64,000 nt of DNA from Malacoraja senta (GCA_038087875.1 CM075992.1:7008001-7072000); one strand, 5' to 3'; positions 601-63,758 are shown, numbered from the stretch's first letter. Notes: generated by a model from the letters alone, not told the origin. A program made the numbers and translations.

Positions 601-1915
601 TTTAGATTATGTCATGGGATCATAGGGAGATGGAGTACACAAACAAGCCCTTGCCAATTGCATTATTTATATTTACGCCTACATAAATCCTATTTTTAAA
701 ATTATCTCAGCAACTCCCCCTAGATTCTACCTTACACACATGGGCAGTTTATAGCAGTCAATTCGTTTAGTATTAAAGGGTCTGAAGAAGGGCCTTGACC
801 TGAAACGTCACTTATTCTCTTTCTCCCAGACATGTTGCCTGATCCGCTGATTTACTCCAGCAATTTGTGTCTATCTTTAGTTTACTTTTGGTTCAAGTTT
901 AGTTTATTGTCACATGTACCGAGGCACAGTGAAAAGCTTCTTTGCTGCATGCTAATTAGTCAGCGGAAAGACTGTACATGATCACCGCCCATAGTGCACA
1001 GATACAGGATAAAGGGAATAAAGTGTAGTGCAAGGTAAAGTTTGATTAAAGATATAGCCCGAGGGTCTCCATTGAGGTAGATAGTAGTTCAGGACTGCTC
1101 TCTAGTTGTTGGAAGGATGGTTCAGTGGCCTGATAACACCCGAATCTTATATGTTTTAATAAGATCCCCTCTGAATTAAAAAAGAAACTGTCCATGAATC
1201 TGGAGGTGTGCGTTTTCACACTTCGGTACCTCTTGCCTGATGGCAGTGGGGAGAAGAGGGGGTGTCCGGGTGAGATATGTCCTTGATTATCGACCCTTCA
1301 TTAACCAATCAACCTGCACATCTTTAGGTCGCGGGAGGAAATCGGAGCAACCAGGGGAAATCTGAATGTCACATTGAGAAAGCAAGAAGTCCACACAGAC
1401 AGCACTGGAGATCAGGATGGAACCTGGGTCATCATTGGTGGGACTGTGGCTCTACATACTGCGCTGCTGAGGCATTACCATGTGGAATCACATAGGCCAG
1501 CATGATATTTTTGCCCGTCAAGTCCATGCTAGCTTTTTGAAAGATGCAGTTATACCACTATCCTGTCCTTTCTTGCAGGTCCATTTTTTCTCTTTCCAAT
1601 GCACATCTAGTTTGATGATCCCTTCTTCTCCTGGTTTTTGTCTTTCCATGTGTTGTTCACACCGTTTCTCAGCTACCAAAGGGGCCAACACATTTCAAGT
1701 TATTGTCATTTGATCTAGAAGCCAGCCGATAGGTTTGTGCTTCCCACTTGGAAATGCGTGACACTCCATGTTGGGTCAGTAGTCCACTGGTTGGAATGTT
1801 CATCCATGTTCAGAATTCTTTCCATGAAGGACGTTGGTTTCACCTGCAGGAAGGTTGTTGTGCAAGGATATAGTCATAGAATCACACACCATGGAAACAG
1901 GCCCTTCGTCCAACT

Positions 1916-2650
1916 TGCGAGATCTGGGTGTCCTTGTTCATCCGTCAGTGAAAGTAAGCATGCAGGTACAGCAGGCAGTGAAGAAAGCTTCACAGGCATG
2001 TTGGCCTTCATAACAACAGGAGTTGAGTATAGGAGCACAGAGGTTCTTCTGCAGTTGTTCAGGGCCCTAGTGAGACCACACCTGAGTATTGTGTGCAGTT
2101 TTGGTCTCCAAATTTGAGGAAGGACATTCTTGCTATTGAGGGAGTGCAGCATAGGTTCACAAGGTTAATTCCTGGGATGGTGGGACTGTCATATGTTGAT
2201 AGAATGGAGCGGCTGGGTTTGTATACGCTGCAATTTAGAAGGATGAGAGGATATCTTATTGAAACATATAAGATTATTAAGAGATTGGACATGCTAGATG
2301 CAGGAAACATGTTCCCAATGTTGGGGGAGTCCCAAACCAGGGGCCACAGTTTAAGAATAAGGGGTAGGCCATTTAGAACGGAGATGAGGAAAAACGTTTT
2401 CACCCAGAGAGTTGTGAATCTGTGTAATTCTCTGCCTCAGAAGGCAGTGGAGGCCAATTCTCTGGATGCTTTCAAGAGAGAGTTAGATAGAGCTCTTAAA
2501 GATAGCGTAGTCAAGGCATATGGTGGGAAGGCAGGAACGGGGTACTGAATGTGGATGATCAGCCATGATCACATTGAATGGCGGTGTTGGCTTGAAGGGC
2601 CGAATGGCCTACTCCTGCACCTATTGTCTATTGTCTATTGTCTATTGCAT
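1916..2650 (+). mobile_element. CR1/HER1-type LINE 3' fragment with (ctattgt)n tail
   Basis: ORF 2093-2548 encodes the RT C-terminus; 3' UTR and tail present. Confidence 0.9.
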
Positions 2651-3649
2651 CTATTAACCTTTTGTGTTTCATGTACGAGGAACACCAAGTCCATTTGTAC
2701 CACAACATTTTGTAGCCTCTTCTTTTAAATAAATGTTTTTTGTTCATTCTTCGTCCAACTTTTAGGATCCCACATTTTCCCAAATTGTACTTTAGCAGTC
2801 AACCTCTTGCCTGGGTGGTGGGAGAAAGGATGCAGTAAAGAGGCGGGTATCTGGGGAAGTGTAACTATGATTGTCCAGTGCATGGGTGGGGTTGTTGTGG
2901 TGAAGCAGCGTGGGATTAGAAAATGCATTGCCACTAATAGCTGGCTGGAGATGAGCAGGAAATCGCGTACCACCAAATGATGGCAATTCCTGTGGCACAA
3001 ATTAAAGGTAGGAGTCATGGATGTGTCAACATTTTCTTCAGTGTACCTGATCCAGAACAGGAGGGACACAACCTTGGTTCAAACAGAATGGGTGACATTT
3101 CAAAACACATTCTTGCCACCTACACAAGCTGCAAGAATGTAGGGAGCATTGTTTCTGAGGTTACTGAGGCAGAAAGAGAAACCTCCGTGGAAGTTGATTA
3201 AGTGGGAAAATATTACAGTGTAAGAGTGAATAACGCTAAGTAAAGAGAGAGCAGTTTCGATGTCCATGATGCAAACCGCTACATTCTCATCAACTACCAT
3301 ATGCTACTGGATCCACTGATACCAATCTTTTGGTTTCATTCAGACTATGTACAGCTTGTTTTTAGATTCCAATTTGACTTTACCCTGTAACCAGAGAGTG
3401 GGAAGTGTTATATTGTTTACTCGCCTAGCTGTGAAAGATTAGATCTCTTTCTTACCCCAACACTAATCAATGCTCTGAACATAGACTGCCCATGTGGACT
3501 GTGTGGCATGCAGACACAGTAAGGACAGTACCTGGAAACACCAGGGAGGTTCCCATTGTGCCCAGAAGTGTTGACCACATTGCAGCCTTCAAGAGCAAAG
3601 CATCAGAGACTACGCCCCCCCCGTCCCCATCCTCACATTGGAGTCAAAG

Positions 3650-5428: not shown

Positions 5429-7215
5429 CGGCGGTGGCGGCAGTAGGTCCGTGGAAGCGCCATTATCCGGGGATGGCATGGGCAACGTCGGTAGGTCAGT
5501 CTGCTAGGGTGGATATCCGTTATGAAGAAGTCCGTGAAATCAAAGGTTTACTCTTGGACGTAAGCAGATGTACTTTTGAACTGTTACCATTTGTCCTCCT
5601 CAATGAACAACAGGCCATAAAACTAAACTCCAGAATTCAGACATGTTGCAATGGACTGCTGTAAAACTGGAGGAGATTTGACTGATTTTCCAAAGGCAGA
5701 ACCAGCAGCGAGCACTAAACTCCTCATACATGCTGTTTTTTTCTGTTTTTATCCTCCCACAAATATGTAATATGTGAATATGTGATTCTGTTCTATTCTG
5801 TTTTGTAGTTTTTTTGCACAATCCGCAAGCATTGCCACTTTTCATTTCACTGCACATCTCGTATGCCTTTGTGACGAATAAACTTGACTTGACTTGACTT
5901 GACTTGAAATTGTGTGTAGGAAGGAACTGTAGATGCTGGTTTAAACTGAAGATAGACACAAAAAGCTGGAGTAACTCAGCGGGCCCGGCAGCATCTCTGG
6001 AGAGAAGGGCAGTCTGAAGAAGGGTTTTAACCCAAAATGTCACCTATTCCTTTTCTCTAGAGATGCTGCCTGACAAGTCCATCTTCAGACTATGTGCCCA
6101 GCTGTACTGTGCAATGCTAATCTGAACAGTAATGGAACATAGAATGGCACAAGAAGTGGTCCTTTGGCCACAATGTCTGTGCCGAACATGATTCCATGTT
6201 AAACTAATCTCCTCTGCCTGATGTGATCCATATCCCTCCATTCCCTGCCTTTCTAAAAGCCTCTTCAATGCCATTATTGTATCTTCCACCATCTCCACCC
6301 CTGGCAGTGCGTTCCAGGCACCCACCATCCACTGTGTAAAAGACATGTCCCGCACAATTTGTCCCTCTTACCTTAAAGCTGTGCCTTCTCCTCTCTAATA
6401 TTGCATTATTTATGAATTAGTATAAAGTGAACCTCAGAAGTGTGAAGGTTGACAACAATGCTGGAGAAACTCAGCGGGTGAGGCAGCATGTATGGAGCGA
6501 AGGAAATAGGCAACGTTTCGGGTCGAAACCCTTCTTCAGACAGAAGTGTGAAGTCACATCTTCATTAATCACATTCACATTTCTTTACAGTTGTACCGCA
6601 TGTGTGCAGCTGTTAAAAATCTTTACCTCGCCACTGTGCAATGCTACATTAGCTCCTTTCGCTACTTTTATTGCGTTCCCACCCTGTAAAACTGGTTTTG
6701 GTTTAGAACCATATGGTTACGTATCCCGACAGCCTTCCCTTTCAACACACTCCAACTAAAGCAGTGTCGTTCCTTCCTTGCATACTCAGCACTGCCAGGA
6801 TCCCCTGACGTTCTCTGTATTAAGCTGGCCATCCTCATTCATCTCATTATTCTTTTTTGTTTCTGTTTCGGCACAACCCTGCATGCAATATCAGTGCAGT
6901 CCGGGCTCTCTCCTTCAGACCCATTTCTCTCTTTCTCTCCGGTTACTTTCTGGGACAGCAGCCAAACCACTTGGCTTTCTATCTGCTCTGTCAACATCCT
7001 GCTTGGGCAACGCATGACTTCTCGGTATTGACTTCAACTTTCCACTCCTATTACAATGCCCAACATCCTACTCCTTCCCATCCGTTCCAAATGTTTTACA
7101 AATCTCTTGCTTAACCATCATCGGCGATCACTCGAAGTCTAGTGTGTCTGTCCTCCTGGTGGGTCCTTTCTGCGGGTCTTCAGATGGTTGATCCTGGAGC
7201 CACAGACTTTATGTT

Positions 7216-7398
7216 GTTAAAGAAGGAACTGCAGATGCTGGAAAATCGAAGGTACACAAAAATGCTGGAGAAACTCAGCGGGTGCAGCAGCATCTATGGA
7301 GCGAAGGAAATAGGCAACGTTTCGGGCCGAAACGTTGCCTATTTCCTTCGCTCCATAGATGCTGCTGCACCCGCTGAGTTTCTTCAGCATTTTTGTGT
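7216..7398. mobile_element. Penelope-pLTR-derived short palindromic insertion (representative of >20 copies in the window)
   Basis: ~70-bp near-perfect inverted arms centred at ~7326; 17-bp TSD gccacagactttatgtt at 7199 and 7399; same sequence as the 3' end of the PLE at 59490. Confidence 0.85.
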
Positions 7399-10300
7399 GC
7401 CACAGACTTTATGTTCTACCAGGTGGACGCCTGTGCGTGACATCTTTTACCGTGGGGACACTGGTGCACGGACAACCACCACACGGTCCTTGGCAGAGAC
7501 AGACCCGGGTCCAACGGCATGGACTCCACCACCTCTCCTTGCTGCAACCTTGTTCAATCTTCTCAGCTGCTGTGGTGTTCCACACTCCGGCCAGCCTCCA
7601 TCCTCCACCTGTTCCACCATTGAGGTTTAGACAACAGACAATACTGTAGGTTTTGGTTTCCTCCCACAATCCAAAAACATACAGGTTTGTAGGTTAATTG
7701 GCTTGGTATCCATGTAAAATTGTCCCTAGTGTGTGTAGGGTAGTGTTAATATGCGGGGATCGCTGGTCGGTGCGGACTCGGTGGGCCAAAGGGCCTGTTT
7801 CCGGGCTGTACGAGTATCTCTAAAACTAAAATAAAGCATACCTCCAGATTCAGGGACAGTTCAGGCAACTGAACCATCCTCTCACCAACTAGTGTGGTCC
7901 TGACCTCCCATCTACCTTATTTATACATAGATACATAGACAATCGGTGCAGGAGTAGGCCATTCGGCCCTTCGAGCCAGCACCCCTATTCAATGTGATCA
8001 TGGCCGATCATCCCCAATCAGTACCCCATTCCTGCCTTCTCCCCATATCCCCAGAATCCGCTATCTTTAAGAGCCCTATCTAGCTCTCTCTTGAAAGCAT
8101 CCAGAGAACCTGCCTCCACCGTCCTCTGAGGCAGAGAATTCCAGACTCACCACTCTCTGTGAGAAAACGTGTTTCCTCGTCTCCGTTCTAAATGGCTTAC
8201 TCCTTATTCTTAAACTGTGGCCCCTGGTTCTGGACTCCCCCAACAACGGGAACATGGGGTTTAGTTTAGTTTAGATTTTAGTTTAGAGATACAGCGCGGA
8301 AACAGGCCCTTCGGCCCACAGAGTCCATGCCGACCAGCGATCCCCGTGCACTAGCACCATCCTACATACTAGAGACAATTTACAATTTTTACCGAAGACG
8401 AATAACCTACAAACCGGCTCATCTTTGGAGTGTGGGAGGAAACCGGAGCACCCGGACAAACCCCATGCGGTCACGGGGACGAACGTACAAACTCCGTACA
8501 GACAACGCTCGTTGTCAGGATCGAACCCGGGTCTCTACAGCTGCACTACTGTGCCGGCCCTTCTGTTATAAGTGCAACTCTGCTAGATCGATGAAAATGT
8601 CCTAGGAATGAATTTCTATTGATGGAAAATGCCTGAAGAAAAATAGAAAGAGTACTCATTCCGGAAGGAATTATAGTAATTATACTGATCCATAGAGGAC
8701 AGGGTGATCCGGGATTTAATATGTATTCAGTGTTATTTTAGATCATTACACTCAAGCAGTGAATTTGTCATAATTTGTCTGAGTCTTGACAAAAGAAAGG
8801 AAAATGTTAAAGTGTTGGAGTAACTCAGTGGGTCAGAGATGAGTTACTCCAGCACTTTGTGTCTTTCTTTGTAAACCATCATCTGCAATTCTTCGTTTCT
8901 ACAATGGTAAATTTGAGCCATTTCTCCCGATCTTGCTCAGGAACAAGCATGTTCTGTCAGAAAGAGCAACATACCATACTGTGTTAGGATATAATACTCC
9001 TGGCTGCGTAGTGCCCAATGACAAACTGGGTTATATCACCGGGACTTAGTTTAGTGTTACAGCATGGAAACAAGCCCTTTGGCCCACCGAGTCCACGCCG
9101 ACCAACGATCACCCTTACACTAGTTCTAACCTACACCCAAGGGATAATTTACAGAAACCAATTAACCTACAAACCTGCACGTCTGTGGAGTATGGGAGGA
9201 AATCGGAGCACCAGTAGGAAACCCACGCGGTCACAAGGAGTACATTCAAACTATACAGACAGCACCCAAGGTCAGGATCGAACCTGGGTCTCTGGAGCTA
9301 TAAAGCAGCAACTCTACCGCTGCCCCATAGTGCCACCCTAACTTCTCTACAAAGGGTGGGAAATGTGTTAATAATTTTACACTTTACTTAAGTGGATATT
9401 TTGAGACATCCCCCAAGTACAGGGAGGGTGTGGGACCTCATGGGTCACATTTCATTTACTTTTATGGTAGATTATGGAGTTGATATCCCTCAAATAGGCA
9501 GTCTGGATACTTCTGAGTAATTTGACTGTTGCTGAATTTTCCCACCACTGTATTAAACTCCATGTTATATTATTTTATTGCTCTGTGAGAGCAGTATCAA
9601 AAATATTTCAAGCCAATTACCAGCTGTGCAATGTCACAGCAAAATATAAAGGAGTTGCTGTATTAACGTCTTCCAAACGCGTTGAGCATTCCCGGCCCAA
9701 TAAAGCAATGGCATCAGAGAAGGAAAGACTACACTCTCCTCCCATTTCTATGAGAAAACATAGTTGCATTGTTTAATGGCAAGGTTCTGTATATTTTGCC
9801 CAGGAAGGCCACAAAATCACCCAGTTATTCTGCTCAAACCAGGACTAAGTCACTTAAATGGTTGCTGTCTAAACATATCATCCACGGCTACGTCAGTTTC
9901 TCGTTTGGTGTGGTCATTGACTTCAATATCCACCCTTCTACAGATGCACATTGTAACAGCCTCTTATCTTCAGACACTTTGCAGTGCGGCTCCTAAATTA
10001 CTTTGGCTGTGACTTATCACTTTTACCACCAAGGACAAGCAAAGATATCATGTGAGCACAACCGCCTCCAAGCTGTATATCACCCATTTCTATCATGGAT
10101 TATCCAGTAAACATAGAAAATAGGTGCAGGAGTAGGTCATTCGGCCCTTCGAGCCAGCACCACCATTCAATATGATCATGGCTAATCATCCAAAATCAGT
10201 ACCTGCTTTCTCCCCATATCCCTTGATTCCTTTAGCCCCAAGAGCTAAATCTAACTCTCCCTTGAAAACATCCAGTGAATTGGCCTCCACTGCCTTCTGG

Positions 10301-13779: not shown

Positions 13780-16700
13780 ACAGAATTGTTTGGTCTTTTT
13801 TATTGACAACACAGATTATTACAAGTTGAAAGAAAAAAAAATCAATTTCAATAATGCAACACCCCTCACCCTTCTAAATCCAATTCACACCCATTCCTGT
13901 TCCACAACAAATAAAAGTGCAAAGGTTGTCTAGCAAAATACAGAATCAACAAATCAACCTGAGAAAAGTAGGTTGAAGATAAGGTGGGAAACACACAGAA
14001 CTCGAGAACTCCCTGCGACTGGTACTTTGGATATGGCCCGTAGGTTCGTAAACTGAGAGCGCTTGTGTTCCATAGTACAACAGCGTTATCAACAGTGCAG
14101 AATAAAGTCAATCTGCTGTAAACAAAGAGTCCCGTCCCATGAGAGGCTTTCCTTCAATTAAAAATAAATCGGGAACATTAAGGATGAAGTCTCAGTCTGA
14201 CGATATATCCTTTTAGTGTTCTCAATCAGTTGGGGGCTTCTCTTTCATGACTAGATAAGATAGTTAACACATACAAGTGTACATCCAAGAAGCACTGTAA
14301 TGAACGCATATGTCCGTAACTTAATTATTTAATTAAAAAAACAGCTGTCGGAGATTCACGGGAAAATGGTTACACTTTTACCAGGTCTTGAATAATGCCC
14401 CCAGTACAAGGAGTCCAAAGAGCCTTACGAGGAAGATGCCACGTTGGTGCATATCATTCTCGTTAACAGACCTGCAAATGTGTTCATAGAATTTTCTTAT
14501 TTCAGAGTTTCAGTGGTTGCATCCATCAGTCATTGATGTATTTATGAGAGTCTTGTTCACATGTTAATAACATTTAAAAAAATGTAATATAAAAGACTAT
14601 CATAAAAAAAAACAAATTCATAACACAAATTCAGTGTCATCGAGTAGTGGTTTTATGTCAGGACTCGCTAACTCTTCAATACAGCCATTATTATTATAGC
14701 TGACTGATTCGTATCCACTTTCTGCACAATGAGAGACATGCAGAAGAATCCAACATTGCAGGGGTCTCTTATCTCTCGCAGAGTCCAACCAGCACGGGAT
14801 AATTCCCATGGCATTCTGCAAAGGTGCTGCTTTATGATCCTTGTGCTGCTCTGACATTAATAATATTGATCCAAATACCCCCCCCTCCCTCCCTAGTATA
14901 TTATGGTCCTCTAATACTGGCCACAAAGGTTTGGTCACATTTTGAGAGTCTGTGCGTTCATGTGTGCGCGAACGTGTACGTCGCATAGAAAGAGCAGCAG
15001 AACCAGCCAATGTTAATGTGTAAGAAGGAACTACAATGCTGGTTTAAACCAAAGATAGACACAAAAAGCTGGAGTAAATCAGCGGGACAGGCAGCATCTC
15101 TGGAGAGAAGGAATGGGTGACGTTTCGGGTCGAGACCCTTCTCCAATGTTAATACTCATTCCCCGCCATTTCACTGCCACTCGCAGTGGAAATTTGCACA
15201 GTAGTAATTGTGTTTTTTACACTGGAGAATTGCAAATAAGAGTGCCCCCAAAAGGAGTCTGATGACCTGAAACGTCACCTCTCCATGTTCTCCAGAGATG
15301 CTGAGTTACGCCAGCACTTGGTGTCCTTTTTTGTAAACCAGCATCTGCAGTTCCTTGTTTCTACCATAAATACGACTGCTTGGGCACTGTGAACACAGCA
15401 TAGGTAGACTTTCCCTCCTGTTTGAAGAAGCCAGGGCTATGAAATTGTGAGAACATACAAATCTGGTAAATCTTTGGGAGTAGAGAAAAACCCTGGCCTA
15501 ATAAACGACCAAATAAAACCTCTGGATACTGGAATTTTTTAAAGTGTGTCAGACTCACACAGTCTTAAATAAACATGCTCTGTGTAAAATATTCCATTAT
15601 ATCCTTAAATAATCTGAATAAATAAGAATAAATCATGTAAAAAGAGTAAAGACTACAATCACCTCTTTTGAAATTACACAGAAGGATTAGGTTTCAAATA
15701 ACACATGACAGCAACTACAAAGGTTGTACTCCAGAGACAAAGGCAATGTGAACTAAATAGAAAAGTGGTGGGTTTACTCAGCACTGCCTTCTAATCTGCA
15801 TCACATATTGAATAGGGATGGAAAGGAAGCTGCCTCTACCCTGGGCAAGTCAAGAGGTTGCCTCGACTTGGAAACTGATTACAACACGCGATACGAGATG
15901 CCTGTATAAAACATGGCTAAAAATCTGGGAACATGCCGACTTCAGGACCTACCTTTACCCACACGGCAGTTGAGAGAGGAAGGGAGAGCACTGGAATTTG
16001 TACGCTTCTGACAATTACAGACACACAATGTGAAAGAGGATGCCGAGTCTGGAGTGCTTCAGTCATAAAATGTGGCAATGGATTGAAGGGTTAAACTTAA
16101 AGGATTTAACACATATCAATGCACTTGAACAGAGATGCTTGTATAAGGATTAAAGTGAGTTGATATGTTACTGCAGGTACAGCATTAATCATCGGATGCT
16201 TTTATATTTTATTTAGAGTGCTTATTTTGTCAGCTAAGCCCCCGATAACAGGCATGAGCATTAAATAACAGTTACTGTAAGACCATCATGTTTTTGATAA
16301 AAAACATTCTTTAAAAACTTGAAACAGCATTAACTTTACATCACTAATGCTGATCAATCCTCTAACACTGCATTTGGCCATTCCCTTTCTTAACGACAAA
16401 TTAGATGGAAGCAAAGATGACCACCGTAAAGAAAAAGGCCAACTCTCAAGATATGGGTTGCAGCTCCATACATTCTCCTTCTTCCTTCAGGAGTTCTACC
16501 TGGGACATATGACAATAAAACACTCTTGATTTTCCATTTAAATACAATGGCTGCTTGGCTTACCAAAATGTCCCCTCAGCAGGTGACGACACCGTCAAAC
16601 ACCTTCCAACAGGTAGATCTTTAAAAAGGAGAGCTATTAGATTCATGTGCCTATTGAGTTGCAAAGTGAAGGACTGACCTGTCAGACACTCTCTAGTGTC

Positions 16701-19495: not shown

Positions 19496-19663
19496 CGGTG
19501 ACTTGTACTGGGCACGAGGGTCTTGTAGAGCTGGGGGATCTTCATGCTGATCATGGGCTGCAAAGATTCCTTCAGTCTGTGGTAGTTACGCTCCAGCTCC
19601 CTGTGATATTCTTTCTGGTCTGCTCCGATCAGAGTCTTGTTCTTGCGCAAGGCATCATCACAT
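19496..19663 (-). CDS. DOCK6: DOCK6 penultimate exon: [27 protein letters not shown]...PSTSHR
   Basis: tgcag / GTAAGG, 168 nt phase 2-2. Confidence 0.94.
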
Positions 19664-20890: not shown

Positions 20891-20997
20891 CGCTTCATGA
20901 AGTCTTTGAAGCAGAGACGGAGCTTGTTGTGATGTCGGAAGAGTTTGGGGTCATCTGGAATGTCTGCCAGGAAAACTTGGGCCACTTCCAAAGGCCC
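20891..20997 (-). CDS. DOCK6: DOCK6 exon: [36 protein letters not shown]
   Basis: ttag / GTATGT, 107 nt phase 0-2. Confidence 0.95.
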
Positions 20998-24581: not shown

Positions 24582-24779
<198 letters not shown>

Positions 24780-27434: not shown

Positions 27435-27480
27435 ACCCACTCCTTAGTAACTGAAAGCCACGTTGGAACGAATATCTTAC

Positions 27481-45099: not shown

Positions 45100-45318
<219 letters not shown>

Positions 45319-45418
45319 TTAAGGCACAGGCGTTGGCTTAAAGAGCACGTGTTTGGGCTTGGAGAACAGCAAATGCGCGGGTCACAAGGTACGAAATGGG
45401 ACATAAAGATGTGCTGAC

Positions 45419-45519
45419 CTGTACATTAGATCCATCAACATTTCAGGATCCTCCTGGTGCTCCTTCATCTTCACTGTGTCTGTGAGGATCATGTGCAGAT
45501 TGAACACCAGGTCTTGGAC
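45419..45519 (-). CDS. DOCK6: DOCK6 exon: [34 protein letters not shown]
   Basis: ccag / GTCAGC, 101 nt phase 0-2. Confidence 0.94.
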
Positions 45520-46593: not shown

Positions 46594-46845
<252 letters not shown>

Positions 46846-47761
46846 TTAGAGGCAAACTCCCAGTAAGTATTATGCTACAGTGGGTGCACGTTCAATCACT
46901 AAGAGTGGATGATCAGGTTAGTTTCTTCTATTAGCACTACAATTTGGGCGATATTTTTCTGCTCTTACCAGAACAATGGTCTCTGCTGTAGAATAAATAT
47001 TGCTTAAGACCTCATCGGCGGCCTCTGTATGACAAAACAGGGCAATGATGAACCATCAGTGGAGACAGTGAGGTGACCAGTGAGCTGAGCTAACTCTAAG
47101 ATATCACTGGATCCTTAAGACTAATGGGACTACAGGTTCGCACTCGAACCTCCTCCTGACTCAAAGTGATGGATTCATTTGTTTAATGCGTCCAGATAAG
47201 TTCATAAATTTACCAGGGATCAGAAAAAAATAGTTTTTAAATACATTGCACCATCGGATCACCCACTCAATTTCTGCTGATCACCACATGACACAAGGGG
47301 GACGAGGTTGGATAAAGGACATGTCGGGGCTTGGCTCCTACCCAACAATGACCCAAAAATAATTTGCGTTGAAAAGCAAAAAAATGTACACATTAGAAAT
47401 CTGATACAAAAGCAGGAAATAGTTTGCAGATAAGGCAGCATCTGTGGTGAGAGAAACTGAATTAATGTTTCAGGTCTTCAGAACTACAATCATGCAACTC
47501 TCAGTTATAAAATGTGCAAGGTTATGTACACACACATTCAAGCTCTTCTGTTAACAATGGAGTGCAGGCAAATTTGCCTTGAGCACTTCCCTGAAATCAA
47601 ACAATTCCACAAAACGAGTGACAGATCAATAGATTGGACAGATTATTAAATATATTCATGCGGTGATTGCTGGTCGGCGTGGTCTCAGTGGACCGGAGTG
47701 CCTGCTTCCACGCTGTATCTCTAAAGTCTGAAAGTCTAAAATTACCAGGGAATTCGATATA

Positions 47762-49378
47762 CAGTGGCTTGCAAAAGTATTCATACCCCTTGAGCTTTTC
47801 CACATTTTGTCACGTTACAACCACAAACGTAAATGTATTTTATTGGGATTTTATGTGATAGACCAACACAAAGTGGCGCATAATTGTGAAGTGGAAGGAA
47901 AATGATACATGGTTTTCAAATTTTTTTACAAATAAAAAACTGAAAAGTGTCGCGTGCAAAAGTATTCAGCCCCCTTTACTCTGATACCCCTAAATAAAAT
48001 CCAGTGCAACCAATTCCCTTCAGAAGTCACCTAATTAGTAAATAGAGTCCACTTGTGTGTAATCTAATCTCAGTATAAATACAGCTATTGGGTGAAGGCC
48101 TCAGAGGCTTGTTAGAGAACATTAGTGAACAAACAGCATCACGAAGCCCAAGGAACACACCAGACAGGTCAGGGATAAAGTTGTAGAGAAGTTTAAAGCA
48201 GGGTTAGGTTATAAAAAAATATCCCAAGCTTTGAACATCTCACGGAGCACTGTTCAATCCATCATCCGAAAATGGAAAGAGTATGGCACAACTGCAAACC
48301 TACCAAGACATGGCCGTCCACCTAAACTGACAGGCCGGGCAAGGAGAGCATTGATCAGATAAGCAGCCATGCGGCCCATGGTAACTCTGGAGGAGCTGCA
48401 GAGATCCACAGCTCAGGTGGGAGAATCTGTCTACAGGACAACTATTAGTCGTGCACTCCACAAATCGGGCCTTTATGGAAGAGTGGCAAGAAGAAAGCCA
48501 TTGTTGAAAAAAAGCCATAAGAAGTCCCGTTTGCAGTTTGCCACAAGCCATGTGGGGGACACAGCAAACATGTGGAGGAAGGTGCTCTGGTCAGATGAGA
48601 CCAAAATTAAAGTTTTTGACCTAAATGCAAAACGCTATGTGTGGCGGACACCTAACACTGCACATCACCCTGAACACACCATCCCCACTGTGAAACATGG
48701 TGGTGGCAGCATCATGCTGTGGGGATGCTTTTCTTCAGCAGGGACAGGGAAGCTGGTCAGAGTTGATGGGAAGATGGATGGAGCCAAATACAGGGCAATC
48801 TTGGAAGAAAACCTGTTAGAGTCTGCAAAAGACTTGAGACTGGGGCGGAGGTTCACCTTCTAGCAGGACAACAACCCTAAACATACAGCCAGAGCTACAA
48901 TGGAATGGTTTAGATCAAAGCATATTCATGTGTTAGAATGGCCCAGTCAAAGTCCAAACCTAAATCCAATTGAGAATCTCTGGCAAGACTTGAAAATTGC
49001 TGCTCACAGACGCTCTCCATCCAATCTGACTGAGCTTGAGCTATTTTGCAAAGAAGAATGGGCAAAAATTTCAGTCTCTAGATGTGCAAAGCTGGTAGAG
49101 ACATACCCCAAAAGACTTGCAGCTGTAATTGAAGCGAAAGATGGTTCTACAAAGTATTGACTCAGGGGGGCTGAATACTTTTGCATGTGACACTTTTCAG
49201 TTTTTTATTTGTAAAAAAATTTGAAAACCATGTATCATTTTCCTTCCACTTCACAATTATGCACCACTTTGTGTTGGTCTATCACATAAAATCCCAATAA
49301 AATACATTTACGTTTGTGGTTGTAACGTGACAAAATGTGGAAAAGTTCAAGGGGTATGACAACTTTTGCAAGCCACTG
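47762..49378 (+). mobile_element. Full-length Tc1/mariner IR/DR DNA transposon, Passport-like
   Basis: TA TSDs at 47760-61 and 49379-80; ~213-bp inverted repeats with inner/outer DRs (tgcaaaagtattca); internal transposase. Confidence 0.95.
48141..49160 (+). pseudogene. DD34E Tc1 transposase, 339 codons, no frameshift; ACG in place of ATG, stops at 48360 and 48861
   Basis: GRPPKL, WSDETK, QDN and [11 protein letters not shown] motifs all in one frame. Confidence 0.92.
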
Positions 49379-50430
49379 TAGAAGTAGGGAGGTGGAGACA
49401 AAAAAGCTGGAGTAACTCAGTGGGACAGGCAGCATCTCTGGCGAGAAGGAATGGGTGACGTTTTGGGTCGAGACCCTTCCTCAGCCTGAAGTATTTTTAC
49501 ACAGAGAGCGGTTGGTGCCTGGAATGCACTGGGTGGTGGAGGCAGATAGGGGAGTGGTCTTTAAAACACTTTTAAATGGTCAAATGTCTTTGCAAATGTA
49601 TAGACAAGAAATGTAGAAGGTCTCGACCCGAAGCTTCACCCAATCCTTCTCTCCAGAGATGCCGCCTCTCCCGCTGAGTTACTCCAGCATTTTGTGTCTA
49701 CCTTCGATTTAAACCAGCATCTGCAGTTCTTTCCCACACATAGTAGGGAGGATATGCTTCAGTTCTATAAAGCTTCGGTGGGATCACATCTGTAGTACTG
49801 TGTATAGGAGTGGTCTCTTTATTTAAGGAAGGATGTTAATATGTTGCCAACAATTCAGCAATTGTTTGCGAGACTAATATCTGGAATGGCTGGGTTGCCT
49901 CAAGAGAAAATGTTGGAAAGGCAATTCATTCAGAAGAGTGAGTGGGGTTTAATTGACACATGCAAGACCTTGGATGTAAAAATTGAATTTCTCCTTGCCA
50001 ATGGTGCTATTTCTAGGGGTGAGTATGTCATTTTACATGCAGACAATGTTCTTTCAGTATCACATATTAATGGTTTAACATATAACATATTAACGCCGCC
50101 GGCTACGGGAGTCAAGATCGTCCCGTCAACGGGGGCTCGAGGCCCCCGACCGCGGGAGAGCAAAGGGAAGAGATTGAACTTTTATTCGCCTTCCATCACA
50201 GTGAAGAATGTGGAGGCGTCTCTGTGATGGATGTTTATGTTAAAATGTGTTTTGTGTGTTCTGTTGCTTTTTCTTGTACGACTGACTTGGCAAAAGAAAT
50301 TCCTCGTATGTTGCAAAACATACTTGGCTAATAAAGTATTATCGTGATTGTGATTTATTTGGATCACCTTCGAATTATAACGAGTTGCTGCCCTCCCATA
50401 TTCAACACCGAAAGCAATTGATGTACTTAC

Positions 50431-50583
50431 ATTGCCAATCTCAAAGTTCTGCCTCATCAGGAGGTAGAGTGAAGCGCTGGCATGGGACCGGATGGTGCCC
50501 ACACAGCTGCTGCAGTGTCGAAGGAGCCGCAAACACAGGTCAGCACAGAGCTCAGTGTCCTCCTCAAACAGCATTTCGGGAAA
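50431..50583 (-). CDS. DOCK6: DOCK6 exon: [24 protein letters not shown]...[10 protein letters not shown]
   Basis: cag / GTAAGT, 153 nt. Confidence 0.94.
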
Positions 50584-50744
50584 CTGTGCAAAGGCATTCA
50601 AAAGACAAATCAAACAGCAGATCACCTCACCATTTTCTGACACAGTACTGACTTAGAACATAGAACAAAATAGCAGAGGAACGGCCCTTTGACATACAAT
50701 GTCCATGCCAAACATGATGCCAGCTTAAACAAATGTCTTCCTAA

Positions 50745-51072: not shown

Positions 51073-51697
51073 TAAGGTAAACACAAAATGCTGGAGTAAC
51101 TCAGCGGATGAGGCAGCATCTATGGAGAGAAGGAATGGGTGACGTTTCGGCTCTTGACTCTCCATATAGCTAAAACCTTCTAACCTAATGCAACAACACA
51201 GTGCTTTAATGCCAGAATAGGAATGAATTTCAGCAGCTATCAGTGAAAATATCTTACATTTTAAAAATATCTCCAAAAAATAGTAATTTGTTTTAAACAA
51301 ATAAGTTAACAGTTAGGATTAGAAGCCATAATACAGAATTTACATCATAAATTCTGTGGGGGGGGGGGGGGGGGGGGAGTGGAGGTAGAAAAGGCCAGAA
51401 TATAGCAGGGTCGGCAACAGACGACCAAGTAAGATTGAAGCCCACAATGGCCCATTGTTGGCTGGGGAAGATATGATAACAAGGGAATACAAGGATAGGA
51501 ACAGTGCAACTAGTTGGACAACTGGGGTGGTGGAGGGGGATAGAGAGGGAAACCAGGGATTACTTAAAATTAAGAGAAATCAATGTTCATGCCGCTGGGT
51601 TGAAAACTGGCCAAGTGAAATACAAGGTGTTGTTCCTCCAATTTAAAGTTAAAGCAGTTGTACATAAAGTTTAACACAAGTGAGCCTTGCTACGTAC

Positions 51698-51832: not shown

Positions 51833-52787
51833 CTGCAAAATAGTACAATCAATGTGAGAGACAGTCTAAACTTGAAAAGCCTATTTCCTTCGCTCGATAG
51901 ATGCTGCTGCACCCGCTGAGTTTCTCCAGCACTTTTGTCTACCTAAACTTGAATTATCTCGTTTCAGCCAAACTGCAATATTTCATTTATTTTAGACAAT
52001 TATTTCTATGTCATTCAGTCACAGATTATTTACCTATCCCAAATTCTTTGTCATCAACCCAGCTTATTACACTTGGATTTATGGCGGCACGATGGCACAG
52101 CGTTAGAGTTGCTGCGTTAGGGTTGCTGCCTTACAGCGCCAGAGACCCGGGTTCAATGTTGACTACGGGTGCTGTCTATATGGAGTTTGTACATTCCTCC
52201 CGTGACCTGCGTGGGTTTTCTCTGGGATCTCCAGTTTCCTCCCACACTCCAAACACGTACAGGTTTGCAGGCTAATTGGCTTGGTATAATTGCAAATTGT
52301 CCCTAGTGCGTATAAGATAGTGTCAATGTGCGGGGATCGCTGGTCAGCGTGGACTCGGTGGGCCGAAGGGCTTATTTCCGTGCTGTATCTCTAAACTTAA
52401 TCGATGCTCTTGATTTATTCTTGCTCATGGCATGGTACGTGGGAACCATTCCTTACTCCTTTCAGACACAGAGCACAGGCTCCTGATCCCGTGATACAGC
52501 AGATTCACTTCAGACTACAATGCTTTCGATTCAAAACATCAACTGCTTTTGAACTCCAACACATCCTAAAAATGACTCAGCATATCTAATTGCATAAAAA
52601 AACCAGATTGTGTCTGTAATTCCAACATTGTAGGTTTTCCACTGACTTTATGAGACATAAAACTGAGATTATTCTCAGCTCCACGTTAGTCTCATGTAAC
52701 TGAAGCACCTCAGATTCAGACGAATGACAGAAGGTAATTGTGCCCATACTATTAGCAATTGCAGTTCTCACTCACCCTACAGCTTAC

Positions 52788-55610: not shown

Positions 55611-56269
55611 CTACAAAGGTACAGAGTATGAATTACAATTCATCCAGCTGTTGCATGACTTCAGGAGGAATGTCTGCAGTTAAACAACAATACGGTTCAT
55701 TAAGTGTAAATCAGTTTCAGTTTGATAACTCTAATTTGGATAAAATATAAATTATTTTTAGTTAAGATAATGTTATTTCCTTTAAGTAGAAATTAGCTTG
55801 TACCAACCACAGTTACATGTGCTAATATTCACGTGTGGCTTGATAGTACAGCGGATTAGTTAATGTTTTTTTCTGTCACTGAAAGGGCAAAATACAATAT
55901 AAATAAGAAACTCATGCATCTGGAAAAATCAACACTCCTCCCATTATAAAATCCAGCTAGACATCCACTTGATTTCAGCATTTCATAACTTCATTGTATA
56001 GGAAGGAACTGCAGATGCTTGTTTACACCAAATATAGCCACAAAATGCTGGAGTAACTCAGTGGGTCAGGCAGCAACTCTGGAGAAAAGGAATAAGTGAT
56101 GCTTTGGGTCGAGACCCTTCTTGAGAAGGGACCCATTGAATTACTCCAGCATTTCGTGTCTGTCTTTCATAACTTCATGGTTCCATTCTGAAGTCCATTC
56201 CATTTGTTAACTGAGAAAATTCCCACTCTGGTTGAAAGCTTGTTTTGTTTTTTAATGACACGCAAGAGG

Positions 56270-59489: not shown

Positions 59490-60447
59490 ACAAAAATGCT
59501 GGAGAAACTCAGCGGGTGAGGCAGCATCTATGGAGCGAAGGAAATAGGCGATGTTTCGGGGTCGAGACCCTTCTTCAGACTGATGTGGGGGTGGGGCGGA
59601 AGAAGAAAGGAAGAGGCGGAGACAGTGGGCTGTGGGATAGCTGGGAAAGGGAGGGGAAAGAAGGGACTATCTAAAATTGGAGACGTCAATGTTCATACCA
59701 TTGGGGTGTAAACAGCCCAAGCGAAATACGAGGTGCTGCTCCTCTAATTTATGGTGGGCCTCACTCTGACCATGGAGGAGGCCCAGGACAGAAAGGTCGG
59801 ATTCGGAATGGGAGGGGGAGTTGAAGTGCTGAGCCACCGGGAGATCAGCTTGGTTAATGTGAACCCAGCGGAGGTGTTGGGCGAAGCGATCGCCAAGCCT
59901 ACGCTTGGTCTCACCGATGTAGAGCAGCTGACACCCAGAGCAGCGGATGCAATAGATGAGGTTGGAGGAGGTTGCAGGTGAACCTCTGCTGCACCTGGAA
60001 AGACTGCTTGGGGTCCTTGGATTGAGTCAAGGGGGGAGGTAAAGCGACAAGTGTAGCATTTCCTGCGGTTGCAAGGGAAAGTGCCAGGGGTGGTTTGGGT
60101 GGGAAGGGCCGAATTGGCCAGGGAGTTACGGAGGGAGCGGTCTCTGCGGAAAGCCGAAAGGGGAGGAGATGGGAAGATATAGGGATGAATTGACCAGGAA
60201 GTTACGGAGGGAGCGGTCTCTGCGGAAAGCCGAAAGGGGAGGAGATGGGAAGATGTGGCCAGTGGTGGGTTACCCGTTGGAGGTGGCGAAAATCTCGGAG
60301 GATTATTTGTTGTACGTGACGGCTGGTAGGGTGGAGGGTGAGGACAAGGGGGACTCTGCCCTTGATACAAGTGGGTGGATGGGGAGTGAGAGCAGAGTTA
60401 CGGGGTATAGAAGAGACCCTGGTGAGAGCCTCATCTATAGTAGAAGA
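59490..60447 (-). mobile_element. 5'-truncated Penelope-like retroelement (GIY-YIG endonuclease region plus 3' pLTR with hammerhead motif)
   Basis: GTFPCNRRKCYTC then frameshifted IY...YIGET motif; ctgttag duplicated at 59483-89 and 60448-54; internal 76-bp duplication at ~60111-60255. Confidence 0.85.
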
Positions 60448-60637: not shown

Positions 60638-61610
60638 CTGGAAAAGAAAATGTACGCACACACAGAAAGGGTCAGAAACACAATTAACCTTCCTCCTTCA
60701 TAAGCTTCTTTCCATTGCTATGGACTATTCCTTGGTATGTCAGAAGGCTGAACTCAAGTAAATGGTAATAATTTACCACAACTCCCTCTAATAGAGAATA
60801 TTAGTTTGTAATGAGCTGCATCATACCTTCACCCCCACATCACAAGGATGTACATAGAACAGTACAAACACAGGGACAGGCCCTTCTGTGCCAAATATGA
60901 TGCTAAGCTCAATTTTGGAGATACAGCGTGGAAACAGACCCTTCGGCCAACGATTCTGCGTCAACCAGTGATCACCCCATATACTAACCTACACACACAA
61001 GGGACAAGTTTACAACTTACCAAAGCAATTAAAATTACAAACCTTAAACATCTTTGGAGTGTGGGAAGAAACCGCAGCACCTGGGGAAAACCCATGGAGT
61101 CACAGAAAGTATGTACAAAGTCCATACACACAGCACCTGTAGTCAGATCAAACCCAAGGTCACTTGCGCTATTAGACATCAACTCTACCATTGCGTCACT
61201 ATGCCACCCACTAATCCCATCTGCCTGAATATGATCCATATCCTTCCATTCCCTGCATGTTCATGTGCCTGTCTGAAAGTCTCTTAAATGTCACTTACGT
61301 ATCTGCTTCCACCATCACCTGTTCCAGGTACCCACCACTGTGGTGAAAACTGGCAGCTTACTGACAGGTTACTGGCAAATGCCATGTTGGAGTCCATCAC
61401 AGCTGACTTACCCTGTCAGCTGCTCAGAAATGAACTGGACAGTGGATCCTGGGCTATTTACCAAAACACTGATGCTAATCATCTCACCCCTACTGAGTGA
61501 AAAGCCCATCCAAGCAGGGGATTAATAGGGGCTACAGATTAATTTGATGTATCTCCACATAACTAACGGTACCTTCACTCCGTTTGGCAATGCAAATAAG
61601 ATGTTTTTAC

Positions 61611-61750
61611 CCTTCGACGTCTGGTTCCAGGATCAAGGCCAGCTCAGTCAATAGCAGCCCCACTAGAAAGTGCTGCTGTCGAAAAGGCACCGACATCTCA
61701 AACATGTTGGCTATCTTCTGATCTTGGACGAGAGTGGAAAAGCCCGAACT
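61611..61750 (-). CDS. DOCK6: DOCK6 exon: [47 protein letters not shown]
   Basis: tttcag / GT boundaries, 140 nt phase 0-2. Confidence 0.9.
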
Positions 61751-63758
61751 CTGAAAATTGAAGTACAGTACAACATCTGTGTCAGCAGCAAATCAATCAC
61801 AGTTCACAAGCCATTGGTCTTGCAGGACAAATTTAATTCCTTGCATTATTTACATTAAAACATCTGCTCTTAAATAAGAATCCAAGAGATGCTGCATTTA
61901 GAGTTATGAAAAAGTTATAGAACACTTCACAGTTGCTGCCTTACAGCGCCAGAGACCCGGGTTCAATCCTGACCACGGGTGCTGTCTGTGCATAGTTTGT
62001 ACGTTCTCCCCGTGACCTGTGTGGGTTTTCTCTGGGATCTCTGGTTTCCTCCCACACTCCAAAGTCGTACAGGTTTGTAGGTTAATTGGCTTTGGCATAC
62101 TTGTTCATTGTCACTAGCGTGTGTAGGGTTATGTTAGTGTGCAGGGGTCGCTGGTCGGCGCGGACTGGGTTGGCAGAAGGGCCTGTTTCCGTGCTGTATC
62201 TCTAAACTAAACTATCAAATGAAGGGGGCAGATGGCATGGGCGCACAAATCAGCAGACTGAATCAGTCTGAAGATGGGTTTTGCATCACCTGTCCATGTT
62301 ATCCAAAGATGCTAACTGACCCGCTGAGTTACTCCAGCACTCTGTCCTTTTATGTAGTAACTACCATCTGCAGGTCTTTGTTTCAACTACGTACAATGAT
62401 AATACATTGCTCGGTTAAAACTGATAATCGGCAATAAGCATGGATACCATTCTCCCCTGTAAGGTCCATAATAACGAGGGTTTACTGTATAGAACACTTC
62501 ACTGTTAACTATTAAATGAAGGGTGCAGATAGCATGGGCTCACAATTCAGCCTGCACGGCCCTCTAGAAATATCACAGTATCAGACACCATTCAGTTGGC
62601 ATTTTGCACAATCAGATCAAAATCATGTGGAACCTTTACCTCTGGAGTATATGCCAGAATGTTAAAACAAAAGCCATTGTTAAATAAAAGTCCAATGTTC
62701 AATTTTGGCTCAGTGCCAAGCATCTAGATTGGTAAAATTAAAAAATATCTGGGACTTTGACGGCTCCTTGACATCCTGAATGACCCCGACAACAGGGAGC
62801 AGTATTTATCTGTCAAACCATCTCAACGTAAACCAGGCCAGTGATGCACAAATTATGATCCACAATGTGGCAACGTGGGACAGGCAGCATCTCTGGAGAG
62901 AAGGAATGGGTGACGATTCGGGTCGAGACCCTTCTTCAGGCTCCCCTGACATCAGTTTGAAGGAGGGTCTCGACCCGAAACGTCAGCTATTCCTTCTGTC
63001 CAAAGATGCTGCCTGTCCTGCTGAGTTGCTCCAGCATTTTGTGTCTACCTTCGATTTGAACCAGCATCTGCAGTTCTTTCCCTGACTAGATGAGCAGTTT
63101 CCGATACTACTGTGCATAAGGCCTGGGACATTGTACATGATCTTCTTCTTTCATCTTGCAGTAGTTTAGTTCAGCTTAGAGATACAGTGCGGTAACGGGC
63201 CCTTGGGCCCACTGTATCCGCACCGACCCGCGAACCTCGTGTACTAACACTATCCTACACACCAGGGACAATTTTACCGAAGCCAATTAACCGACAAACC
63301 TATAGGTCTTTGGAATGTGGGAGGAAATCGGAGCAAATCCACAAGGCCACGGGGAGAACGTACAAACTCTGTACAGACAACACCCATAGTCAGGATCTAA
63401 CCCGGATCTCTGGCGCTGTAAGGCAGCAACTCTACACCTGCGCCACCATACAAATGATACTATTGACCATTGTAGATGTGCTGAATCTTTGAACGGATGA
63501 TTAATTTAGTGGCATTCTCCTGGCCTTTCCCTGCAGCTCTGCAAATTTCCCCGCATCTTTATCCAATTCCCCTTTGAATGCTGTTCTTCAATTTGCTCTC
63601 ACCATTCTTCCCAGCAGCATATTCGAGATTGTAATAAATGGATGCACAAAATATATTATTTTGTCTCCAGTTTCTTTCACTTGCTTGATATTTGTATCGT
63701 CACTCTGCTGAAAATGTATCACCAGGAGTTGAAGGGGCAGCATTAGAACTGTACTTAC

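What the first reader, a model, noticed from the sequence alone, without database searches (positions are those of the whole stretch)
782..62984. Dispersed Penelope-derived mini-elements carrying minimal hammerhead ribozyme motifs
Seen: >20 copies of a ~100-200 bp repeat containing CTGAAGA-A-GGGTCTCGACCC-GAAAC-GTC or decayed variants. Near-intact cores lie at 782-809(+), 6512-6539(-), 27407-27434(+), 31708-31735(-), 41861-41888(+) and 59550-59578(-). The same sequence forms the 3' end of the GIY-YIG-encoding PLE at 59490-60447, which identifies the parent. Many copies have their own 11-17 bp TSDs (6435/6541, 7199/7399, 15007/15143, 40401/40588, 55981/56165), so they are independent insertions. 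Known: PLEs carry minimal type I hammerheads (CUGANGA/GAAA/NUH core, palindromic loop replacing stem III) that cleave as dimers. Inference: this is an abundant ribozyme-bearing PLE family in this genome, either retrozyme-like or heavily 5'-truncated. Caveat: predicted stem I is only ~2 bp, so activity is unproven.
Basis: partly seen in the sequence, partly recalled or inferred. Interest (0 to 1): 0.75.

Follow-up and report, generated by a model that had tools for sequence, protein, structure and literature searches.

The report
Penelope retrotransposon stubs carrying hammerhead relics
About thirty short repeats in this skate-like genome are stubby, often mirror-image insertions of the ribozyme-bearing end of a known kind of jumping gene; most of their ribozymes are mutated, but their sharply fixed ends likely record how this poorly understood class copies itself.

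Summary
All six cores are at the stated coordinates, and the five named target-site duplications are real. A profile finds 42 arms in about 30 loci within and around a DOCK gene. The parent (59490-60447) is a broken, 5'-truncated Neptune-type Penelope-like element (PLE).

The hammerhead fold is real at family level: 36 of 76 distant PLE loci carry the same core just after the endonuclease, and stem I covaries. In this window only 2 of 19 full cores are canonical, cores decay as fast as flanks, and stem I is 2 bp.

The copies are not retrozymes. They are short pLTR insertions, single or head-to-head. All 6 inverted pairs bounded by a target duplication have the known ~40-nt 'tail' on one arm only. 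Unexplained: 19 of 23 arms that reach the ribozyme stop at its 5' edge, not at its cleavage site.

The best model is priming of one or both target strands at two internal start sites, with cDNA ending at the ribozyme front. The layout is published, and this scan found the same thing before on other shark and skate DNA. A known kind, with a modest mechanistic clue.

The parts
59490..60447 (-). Parent: 5'-truncated, frameshifted Neptune-type PLE (end of RT thumb/linker, CX4CxxC finger, GIY-YIG with CCHH, 3' UTR, ribozyme, short 3' end); 7-bp TSD 59483/60448
   Evidence: tblastn to P0004 E 8e-47; alignment; Pfam GIY-YIG 20.6 bits, below cut-off 22.6; the 7-bp TSD is not significant alone (P 0.26) but abuts both ends
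59550..59578 (-). Parent's hammerhead core, mutated (extra C, 15.2-16.2 pair broken), about 90 nt after the endonuclease stop
6448..6540 (-). Solo stub, short 3' end, 5' end at -1, canonical core 6512-6539, 13-bp TSD 6435/6541
31639..31838 (.). Head-to-head pair with 10-bp TSD. Minus arm has a canonical core (31708-31735) and a short end; plus arm starts at the cleavage site (+28) and has the tail. The inversion gives the core a long artificial stem I on the host gene's sense strand
7216..7398 (.). Head-to-head pair joined inside stem II (+16/+17), tail on left arm, 17-bp TSD, arms 98.5% alike
28775..28985 (.). Head-to-head pair (+8/+14), tail on right arm, 9-bp TSD
40412..40587 (.). Head-to-head pair (+44/-1), tail on left arm, 11-bp TSD
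55995..56164 (.). Head-to-head pair (-1/+57), tail on left arm, 14-bp TSD
49393..49741 (.). Head-to-head pair separated by about 120 nt of other repeat sequence, tail on right arm, 10-bp TSD 49383/49742
15018..15142 (-). Solo stub with tail, 5' end +1 to +3, 11-bp TSD
51877..51942 (+). Solo stub starting at the cleavage site (+28, two extra bases), 11-bp TSD
41846..41946 (+). Solo stub, core 41861-41888 with AUAU instead of ACGU, 12-bp TSD with one mismatch
780..878 (+). Stub with core 782-809; catalytic bases kept, stem II 3 bp; no significant TSD
27057..27445 (.). Tailed minus arm 27057-27176 and short plus arm 27403-27445 (core 27407-27434, G-U at the base of stem II), separated by another repeat; no TSD
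62878..63088 (.). Head-to-head pair (-3/-12), left arm cut short, right arm tailed; both cores mutated; no TSD
5911..6074 (.). Head-to-head pair (+35/-4), left arm tailed, right arm cut short; no TSD
28278..28397 (+). Arm that runs on upstream into pyrimidine-rich element UTR; G12 deleted; assembly gap follows
8805..8905 (.). Older head-to-head pair without the core
20431..20665 (.). Older composite: inverted arm plus two decayed cores in tandem
25200..25621 (.). Cluster of four arms, including a partial tandem and a pair with long ends on both sides; no TSD
35020..35157 (-). Old, diverged subfamily stub, 8-bp TSD (P 0.08)
36376..36467 (-). Solo stub, G12 mutated
51078..51151 (-). Solo stub starting in stem II (+17)
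62262..62385 (+). Older stub with deletion in the core
15250..15366 (+). Older stub with deletions
19495..50652 (-). Host context: exons of a DOCK-family gene (DHR-2 lobes A, B, C); the stubs within this span lie between its exons
   Evidence: Pfam; PDB DOCK6 E 4e-24

Best explanation
These repeats are short, target-duplication-flanked insertions of the ribozyme-bearing end (pLTR) of a Neptune-type Penelope-like retrotransposon, likely made when the element's protein primes reverse transcription on one or both cut target strands and the copy stops at the front edge of the ribozyme. Positions count from C3 of the core (cleavage site at +27/+28). Shown: two fixed 3' ends (about +90 and +131), 7-17 bp TSDs, head-to-head geometry, a tail on one arm only, a 5' cluster at -6..+5, and family-level conservation of the hammerhead. 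Inferred from the Anolis Poseidon enzyme (PMC11167929: cuts and extends both strands, two internal start sites, predicted dimer): a staggered cut frees two 3'-OH ends, each primes at one of two start sites, and the two cDNAs are joined at their far ends. One priming gives a solo stub; a long run gives a copy like the parent. The least certain step is why cDNA ends at the ribozyme front. I favour run-off at an RNA 5' end there (about 0.45) over an RT stop at the folded ribozyme (about 0.35) or later trimming (about 0.2). The ribozyme is likely functional only in master elements, as a weak, dimer- or protein-assisted cutter; in the stubs it is a decaying passenger.
For: Parent identity. Orientation: 10 of 11 adjacent arm pairs are minus-then-plus (3' ends outward), 1 is tandem, 0 are tail-to-tail. 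All 6 TSD-bounded inverted pairs have one long and one short end (about 0.016 if ends were drawn independently at even odds). In 3 of the 5 directly joined TSD pairs (28775, 31639, 40412) the tailed arm reaches less far 5' than the untailed arm, so neither arm can be a full copy of the other. 5' ends: 19 of 23 arms reaching +5 stop within -6..+5, with 2.3 expected; among arms fixed by a TSD or partner arm it is 8 of 11. Upstream of 11 clustered arms the sequence is 32-64% pyrimidine, against 84% in 2 arms that run on. In run X1, 57 contigs leave the element at -1 and 207 at -2, into heterogeneous sequence (agreement 0.36). In distant relatives 4 of 10 extra or inverted arms also end at -1..+4. 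Neutral decay in copies: non-CpG core 15 of 222 (6.8%) against non-diagnostic flank 80 of 1259 (6.4%), P 0.77. Selection across families: 36 of 76 loci sense, 0 antisense; the first stem I pair holds in 18 of 18 rows with four pair types.
Against: No RNA evidence for any step. The 5' window was chosen after seeing the data and the ends were curated by hand, so those P values are descriptive. Position -2 is also the end of the reference, so the 207 contigs mix true ends with copies that run on. One pair without a TSD (25339/25431) has long ends on both arms. In 55995 the tailed arm reaches further 5', which fold-back would also explain. Hairpin centres can be deleted after insertion, which would shift junctions. 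In D. virilis the start site lies 46 nt before a 75-nt intron (PMC2377424 passages) whose end maps to helix I (PMC4209133), about 120 nt upstream of the ribozyme, which argues against run-off being general. Six of 10 extra arms in relatives end elsewhere. Partner arms rank only 1 to 13 among 24-28 arms by identity, so one RNA versus two is undecided.
Confidence: 0.8

Rival explanations
1. A non-LTR retrozyme: tandem units cut by their own hammerheads into monomers or circles, which are then reinserted by the PLE protein.
For: A joint that goes back 88 bases (59580 to 59493, one unit from the ribozyme front to the short end) occurs in all four runs laid, in 4, 3, 5 and 1 contigs. Two of 42 arms start exactly at the cleavage site. 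One partial tandem lies at 25200-25405. Retrozymes are reported in one chondrichthyan (10.64898/2026.07.22.740005, passages).
Against: No tandem of intact ribozymes in the window; same-strand near-intact cores lie 14-28 kb apart. The tandem joints involve 13 contigs out of 179,772 laid, and the letters between the sides are unknown. The cleavage site is not among the six best-supported loose ends, the smallest of which has 10 contigs (88 rows not shown). Units begin about 30 nt upstream of the cut. The monomer's predicted fold does not form the ribozyme.
Confidence: 0.07
2. Inverted pairs arise by self-priming: one cDNA (or an antisense RNA) folds back at a palindrome near the ribozyme and copies itself, and the endonuclease then trims one end to create the tail asymmetry (proposed in PMC3846280 and PMC8557442).
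For: Junctions show short shared words at some pairs (4 nt at 40492, 2-3 nt at 31736). The 7216 pair has 98.5% identical arms. In 55995 and 62878 the tailed arm is the one that reaches further 5'.
Against: In 28775, 31639 and 40412 each arm holds sequence the other lacks, which a simple fold-back copy cannot give. The 49393 pair has 120 nt of foreign sequence between the arms. In vitro data show two RT start sites matching the tail and extension of both strands (PMC11167929, read parts 1-2 of 4).
Confidence: 0.2
3. The stubs are a self-propagating non-autonomous family (SINE- or MITE-like) copied from short master stubs.
For: Very high abundance (30,452 contigs laid on 133 bases); fixed ends; some junction forms recur with high summed depth (table 5c, kind of joint not shown).
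Against: Each inverted pair in the window has its own junction. TSD length varies from 7 to 17 bp, unlike the fixed length expected of a DNA transposase (own knowledge). Several subfamilies give the same ends, and the same 3' end caps the protein-coding parent. ARAGORN was not run; no tRNA-like head was reported by Rfam.
Confidence: 0.15
4. Some copies are host-used ribozymes or hairpins in the DOCK pre-mRNA; the best case is 31639-31838, where the inversion supplies a long stem I around a canonical core on the transcribed strand.
For: The minimum-energy fold of 31680-31765(-) is a 27-bp stem I enclosing stem II and the open core; the gene is on the minus strand.
Against: The fold follows trivially from an inverted repeat. 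The arms have decayed to 86% complementarity. Stem III still needs a second copy. Cores decay at the flank rate. With 19 cores, 2 canonical ones are unremarkable.
Confidence: 0.04

Closest known systems
Minimal type I hammerheads in pLTRs of metazoan PLEs (Cervera and De la Pena 2014, PMC4209133; read parts 1-2 of 4; figures and supplements not seen)
   Same: Catalytic core, one bulged base before stem II, G10.1-C11.1, palindromic 15.2-16.2 with no loop 3, thousands of dispersed single motifs ascribed to truncated PLEs, pairs on opposite strands; reported in fish Xena, Poseidon and Neptune elements.
   Different: Stem I is 2 bp here (4-5 bp typical there; 2 bp in D. virilis) and stem II is 4-5 bp. 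The parts I read do not map the ends of the short copies. The unseen supplementary alignments may include a cartilaginous fish.
EN+ PLE insertion unit: 5' truncation, adjacent inverted pLTR, 30-40 bp tail on one end, variable TSD (PMC3846280, PMC8557442; passages)
   Same: Head-to-head geometry, tail on one end only, TSDs of similar length, solo pLTRs.
   Different: Here the units are nearly all pLTR-only, 66-211 bp where TSD-bounded, about 30 per 64 kb, with 5' ends at the ribozyme front.
Poseidon of Anolis carolinensis, PAc (Frangieh et al. 2024, PMC11167929; read parts 1-2 of 4)
   Same: Two RT start sites downstream of the ribozyme that define the tail; both strands cut and extended; no reads at the cleavage site; ribozyme not needed for insertion and active only with the protein.
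   Different: Different clade (this parent has the CX4CxxC linker absent from Penelope/Poseidon). In PAc the ORF starts in stem II, whereas stem II has no ATG here.
Non-LTR retrozymes (PMC7229834, passages; 10.64898/2026.07.22.740005, read parts 1 and 3 of 5 plus passages)
   Same: Non-coding, type I hammerhead, PLE-related.
   Different: Defined as tandem repeats with a ribozyme in consecutive units, mostly canonical ribozymes, depleted from introns in Xenopus; here dispersed or inverted, largely intronic, minimal and mostly mutated.

Membership tests
EN+ Penelope-like element, Neptune/Nematis type | C-terminal GIY-YIG endonuclease with CCHH motif | tested here: met
   Two cysteines between the GIY and YIG positions and the downstream histidines are conserved in alignment A1; the Pfam score alone is below cut-off
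EN+ Penelope-like element, Neptune/Nematis type | CX2-5CxxC finger in the RT-EN linker | tested here: met
   C-x4-C-x2-C in the parent's upstream frame, aligned to P0004
EN+ Penelope-like element, Neptune/Nematis type | PLE-type RT upstream of EN; placement by RT phylogeny (Neptune versus Nematis) | tested here: inconclusive
   The parent is truncated before the RT core; the relative P0004 has a weak RVT_1 match; no tree was built
EN+ Penelope-like element, Neptune/Nematis type | Inverted 5'-truncated copy and 30-40 bp tail on one end | tested here: met
   6 of 6 TSD-bounded inverted pairs
EN+ Penelope-like element, Neptune/Nematis type | Variable-length TSD | tested here: met
   9-17 bp in 9 of 30 loci plus one further pair
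EN+ Penelope-like element, Neptune/Nematis type | Full-length partial tandem pLTR-ORF-pLTR | not testable with these tools
   No full-length copy in the window; no genome held
Minimal type I hammerhead ribozyme | Catalytic core CUGANGA / GAAA / UH | tested here: met
   In the family consensus and in 6 of 19 full cores; invariant or nearly so across 18 rows
Minimal type I hammerhead ribozyme | Stem II with G10.1-C11.1 and one bulged base before it | tested here: met
   97% of cells paired, three pairs with double changes; partly by construction, because the scan required 3 bp
Minimal type I hammerhead ribozyme | Stem I of 4-5 bp | tested here: not met
   2 bp in this family; mostly 3-6 bp and covarying in relatives
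Minimal type I hammerhead ribozyme | Palindromic 15.1-16.1 allowing stem III in a dimer | tested here: met
   ACGU in the consensus; 17 of 18 rows pair at 15.2-16.2 (required by the scan for the relatives)
Minimal type I hammerhead ribozyme | Self-cleavage as dimer or with the PLE protein | not testable with these tools
   Needs an assay; predicted monomer and dimer folds of the 6448 copy do not adopt the ribozyme
Non-LTR retrozyme | Tandem units each with a complete ribozyme | tested here: not met
   None in the window; rare 88-nt joints elsewhere, state of their cores unknown
Non-LTR retrozyme | Unit ends defined by the cleavage site | tested here: not met
   2 of 42 arms start there; not among the top loose ends
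Non-LTR retrozyme | Expressed as linear or circular monomer RNA | not testable with these tools
   No raw RNA reads were available for this stretch

The most novel reading that the evidence does not exclude
The stubs are a genomic record of the PLE insertion cycle. A dimeric protein primes both target strands at two different start sites on RNA and stops at the ribozyme's front edge, a boundary shared by skate-like and very distant Neptune-type elements. That edge would be the RNA's 5' end or a programmed RT stop, and the paired RNAs in one particle would supply the second ribozyme that the minimal hammerhead needs.
Probability: 0.3. Interest if true: 0.6.

Novelty: new member of a known kind. 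Interest (0 to 1): 0.3.

Why it matters
The published accounts I read call the origin of PLE tandem and inverted structures undefined, and the role of their hammerhead open. A genome with this density of short, end-defined insertions allows the question to be settled by counting: tail asymmetry, which arm reaches further, and where 5' ends fall. The result that ends sit at the ribozyme's front rather than at its cut argues that cleavage does not make these templates, in line with the Anolis in vitro data. Practically, such hairpins can be mis-called as MITEs, microRNA precursors (the best Rfam hits were of that kind, below threshold) or active ribozymes.

Tried and rejected
Whole genome: none held, so there is no genome-wide count, consensus or empty-site test. 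Rfam: no hammerhead family matched at E up to 10; the best hits were sub-threshold microRNA and plastid hairpin models on the inverted pairs. Exact-core pattern scans of viral and metagenome contigs gave 0 matches. Sequencing runs: no RNA holder listed; X18 is probably DNA. The depth profile along the parent could not be read, because the parent's private changes cause dips and summed contig depth is no copy number. Cleavage-made 5' ends as a main class: suggested by two arms at +28, not borne out. Splice-acceptor origin of the 5' edge (pyrimidine tract plus CAG at -4..-2, as in D. virilis): the relatives generally lack AG there and no shared 5' exon appears in the loose ends; kept only as a side note. 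An initiator-like word at -5..-1 (recalled consensus) is not shared by the relatives. Same-template test for partner arms: inconclusive. Most other palindromes in the distant loci showed no ribozyme core by eye and were set aside. Literature: searches for twin priming with Penelope, for recent mechanism papers with hammerhead (0 hits), for pLTR, hammerhead and truncation, and for PLEs in cartilaginous fish listed no paper that, by title, abstract or the parts I read, reports the 5' pile-up at the ribozyme front. The library lacks most subscription papers and Repbase or Dfam entries, and supplements were not read. A sequence look-up in earlier findings returned nothing.

Full report
Setting. 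The window is vertebrate DNA with exons of a DOCK-family gene on the minus strand from at least 50.6 kb to 19.5 kb (DHR-2 lobes A, B and C; DOCK6 structure match). The nearest named relatives of the repeat's protein are from skates and a bamboo shark, so I call the genome skate-like. No whole genome is held. Positions below count from C3 of the ribozyme core as 0; the cleavage site lies between +27 and +28.

Observation. A profile built from 20 arms finds 42 arms at E<0.01 and nothing better than E 6.8 in the reversed window. I group them into about 30 loci, 6.1% of the window. Contigs of public runs confirm great abundance in this and another organism: 71,060, 37,622, 64,149 and 6,941 contigs were laid on 301 bases. 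These figures are not copy numbers.

Parent. The stretch 59490-60447 (minus) aligns to residues 200-449 of the RT-endonuclease protein P0004 across frameshifts (E 8e-47; the first 20 residues of that match fall in flank and look like chance extension). It has the C-x4-C-x2-C linker finger and a GIY-YIG domain with the CCHH residues, the signature of Neptune and Nematis in PMC8557442 (passages). It lacks the RT core, carries a 74-bp internal duplication, and its ribozyme is mutated. It is a dead truncated copy that identifies the family, not the source of the others. At least two 3' subfamilies and several upstream UTR types are present.

Is the ribozyme real? At family level, yes. I fetched 80 loci encoding distant relatives of the endonuclease (39-56% identity in the best segment). 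Of 76 with at least 250 nt downstream, 36 carry a minimal hammerhead on the sense strand within 400 nt and none on the antisense strand (many loci are near-copies). An alignment of 18 rows (3 from the window, 15 hand-picked from the relatives, about one per family) has an invariant or nearly invariant core and poorly conserved flanks. Pair counts exceed all 500 shuffles and all slid controls on percentage paired and covariation score. Stem II and the palindrome were required by my scan; stem I was not required, only used as a tie-break, and its first pair holds in 18 of 18 rows with four pair types, the second in 17, the third in 12 and the fourth in 9. This is the anatomy described in PMC4209133, which found no monomer cleavage and low dimer cleavage.

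Are these copies active? Mostly not. Of 31 curated arms (11 short or old arms left out), 19 span the core. Six keep all catalytic bases, four also keep stem II and the 15.2-16.2 pair, and two (6512, 31708) are canonical. Non-CpG core positions differ from consensus at 6.8%, flank positions at 12.1% (P 0.018), but at 6.4% once 14 subfamily-diagnostic columns are removed (P 0.77). Selection thus acted between subfamilies, not on inserted copies. Stem I is 2 bp. The predicted fold of the 6448 copy pairs the core with downstream pyrimidines instead (stem II probability 0.01), and a two-strand fold does not give the dimer ribozyme; such predictions ignore tertiary contacts and protein. The exception in layout is 31639-31838, where the inverted arm supplies a long stem I.

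Ten of 11 adjacent arm pairs are head-to-head with 3' ends outward, and none is tail-to-tail. The 3' ends fall in two classes, near +90 and near +131. All six TSD-bounded pairs carry one of each; one pair without a TSD has two long ends. The inverted copy and the one-sided 30-40 bp tail are published PLE features (PMC3846280, PMC8557442; passages), and PMC11167929 shows in vitro that the tail lies between two RT start sites and that both target strands are cut and extended. In three directly joined pairs (28775, 31639, 40412) the tailed arm is the shorter at its 5' side, so neither arm can be a full copy of the other; in 55995 the reverse holds, and in 7216 the arms are level. This favours priming on both strands over simple fold-back, unless hairpin centres were deleted later.

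The 5' edge. Nineteen of 23 arms that reach +5 stop between -6 and +5, against 2.3 expected from the rate further downstream; among arms bounded by a TSD or partner arm it is 8 of 11. The window was chosen after the fact and the ends were curated by hand. Clustered arms are not preceded by the element's pyrimidine-rich UTR. With the 6448 copy as reference, 57 contigs of run X1 leave at -1 and 207 at -2, into mixed sequence; -2 is also the reference's own end, so that number is ambiguous. The cleavage site is not among the six best-supported loose ends (smallest 10 contigs, 88 rows unseen), although 2 of 42 window arms start exactly there. In the distant loci 4 of 10 extra arms end at -1..+4 and six elsewhere. 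The cause is inferred, not shown. Run-off at an RNA start fits the 2-bp stem I and an initiator-like word (recalled), but the one mapped Penelope start lies about 120 nt upstream of its ribozyme (PMC2377424 passages with PMC4209133). An RT stop at the structure fits the recurrence in families with unrelated upstream sequence.

Comparison and verdict. It works like, and passes the testable membership features of, an endonuclease-bearing PLE of Neptune/Nematis type with a minimal hammerhead; clade placement by RT was not possible. It fails two defining features of non-LTR retrozymes (tandem units with intact ribozymes, cleavage-defined ends), though rare 88-nt tandem joints exist. My searches showed no paper reporting the 5' pile-up; unseen supplements and repeat databases may hold this family. 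Earlier agents of this scan reached the same reading on other shark and skate DNA; I had noted mine before looking, and theirs is not independent proof. New member of a known kind; interest 0.3.

Noticed in passing
window 51380-51645 (-): Second PLE fragment of another subfamily: endonuclease C-terminus (65% to P0001 over 26 aa) and a longer 3' UTR ending at a G run; no ribozyme follows directly.
   Followed up: partly
window 60105-60254: 74-bp tandem duplication (95% alike) inside the parent's linker region.
   Followed up: no
window 31838-31877 and 27403-27500: Two ribozyme-bearing arms lie within tens of bases of apparent DOCK exon ends; the 31639 hairpin starts roughly 35 nt into the intron (exon boundary judged by eye).
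   Followed up: partly
window 23114-23463, 29311-29624, 50734-51083: Another family of inverted-repeat elements with 50-76 nt arms about 200 nt apart, MITE-like, unrelated to the PLE stubs.
   Followed up: no
window 886-1092, 27177-27402, 30934-31160: A separate repeat of about 220 bp; at two of three places it directly adjoins or splits PLE arms.
   Followed up: partly
window 48363-48863 (+): Tc1/mariner-type transposase fragment (Pfam HTH_Tnp_Tc3_2, E 8e-22).
   Followed up: no
window 26326-26925 (-): LINE ORF2 C-terminal fragment with weak zf-RVT match; several other LINE 3' fragments (about 2030-2550, 3720-4040, 4830-5510, 10840-11650) look CR1-like by recall.
   Followed up: no
window 59100-59410, 60910-61210, 61930-62210 and others: Many copies of a SINE-like repeat of about 300 bp (HE1/V-SINE-like by recall; not tested).
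   Followed up: no
window 59581-59606 (-): Pyrimidine tract plus CAG immediately before stem I, resembling the D. virilis intron end that maps to helix I; not shared by the distant relatives.
   Followed up: partly
L058:4213-4386; L001:35-112; L054:2-61: Distant PLE families show inverted arms that end at the front of their own minimal hammerhead, as in the window.
   Followed up: partly
L002, L008, L012, L035, L046: 20-110 nt after the ribozyme: Distant families share two short complementary words downstream of the ribozyme (GACAC/GGCAC and GTGTC/GTGCC), suggesting a conserved stem near the RT start sites; the window's short end also falls at a GTGTC word.
   Followed up: no
table 5c, window 6529-6533 to 6499-6501: A recurrent joint between the start of stem II (+8) and +40, where the core's purines can pair with a downstream pyrimidine word as in the predicted fold; the kind of joint is not shown.
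   Followed up: no
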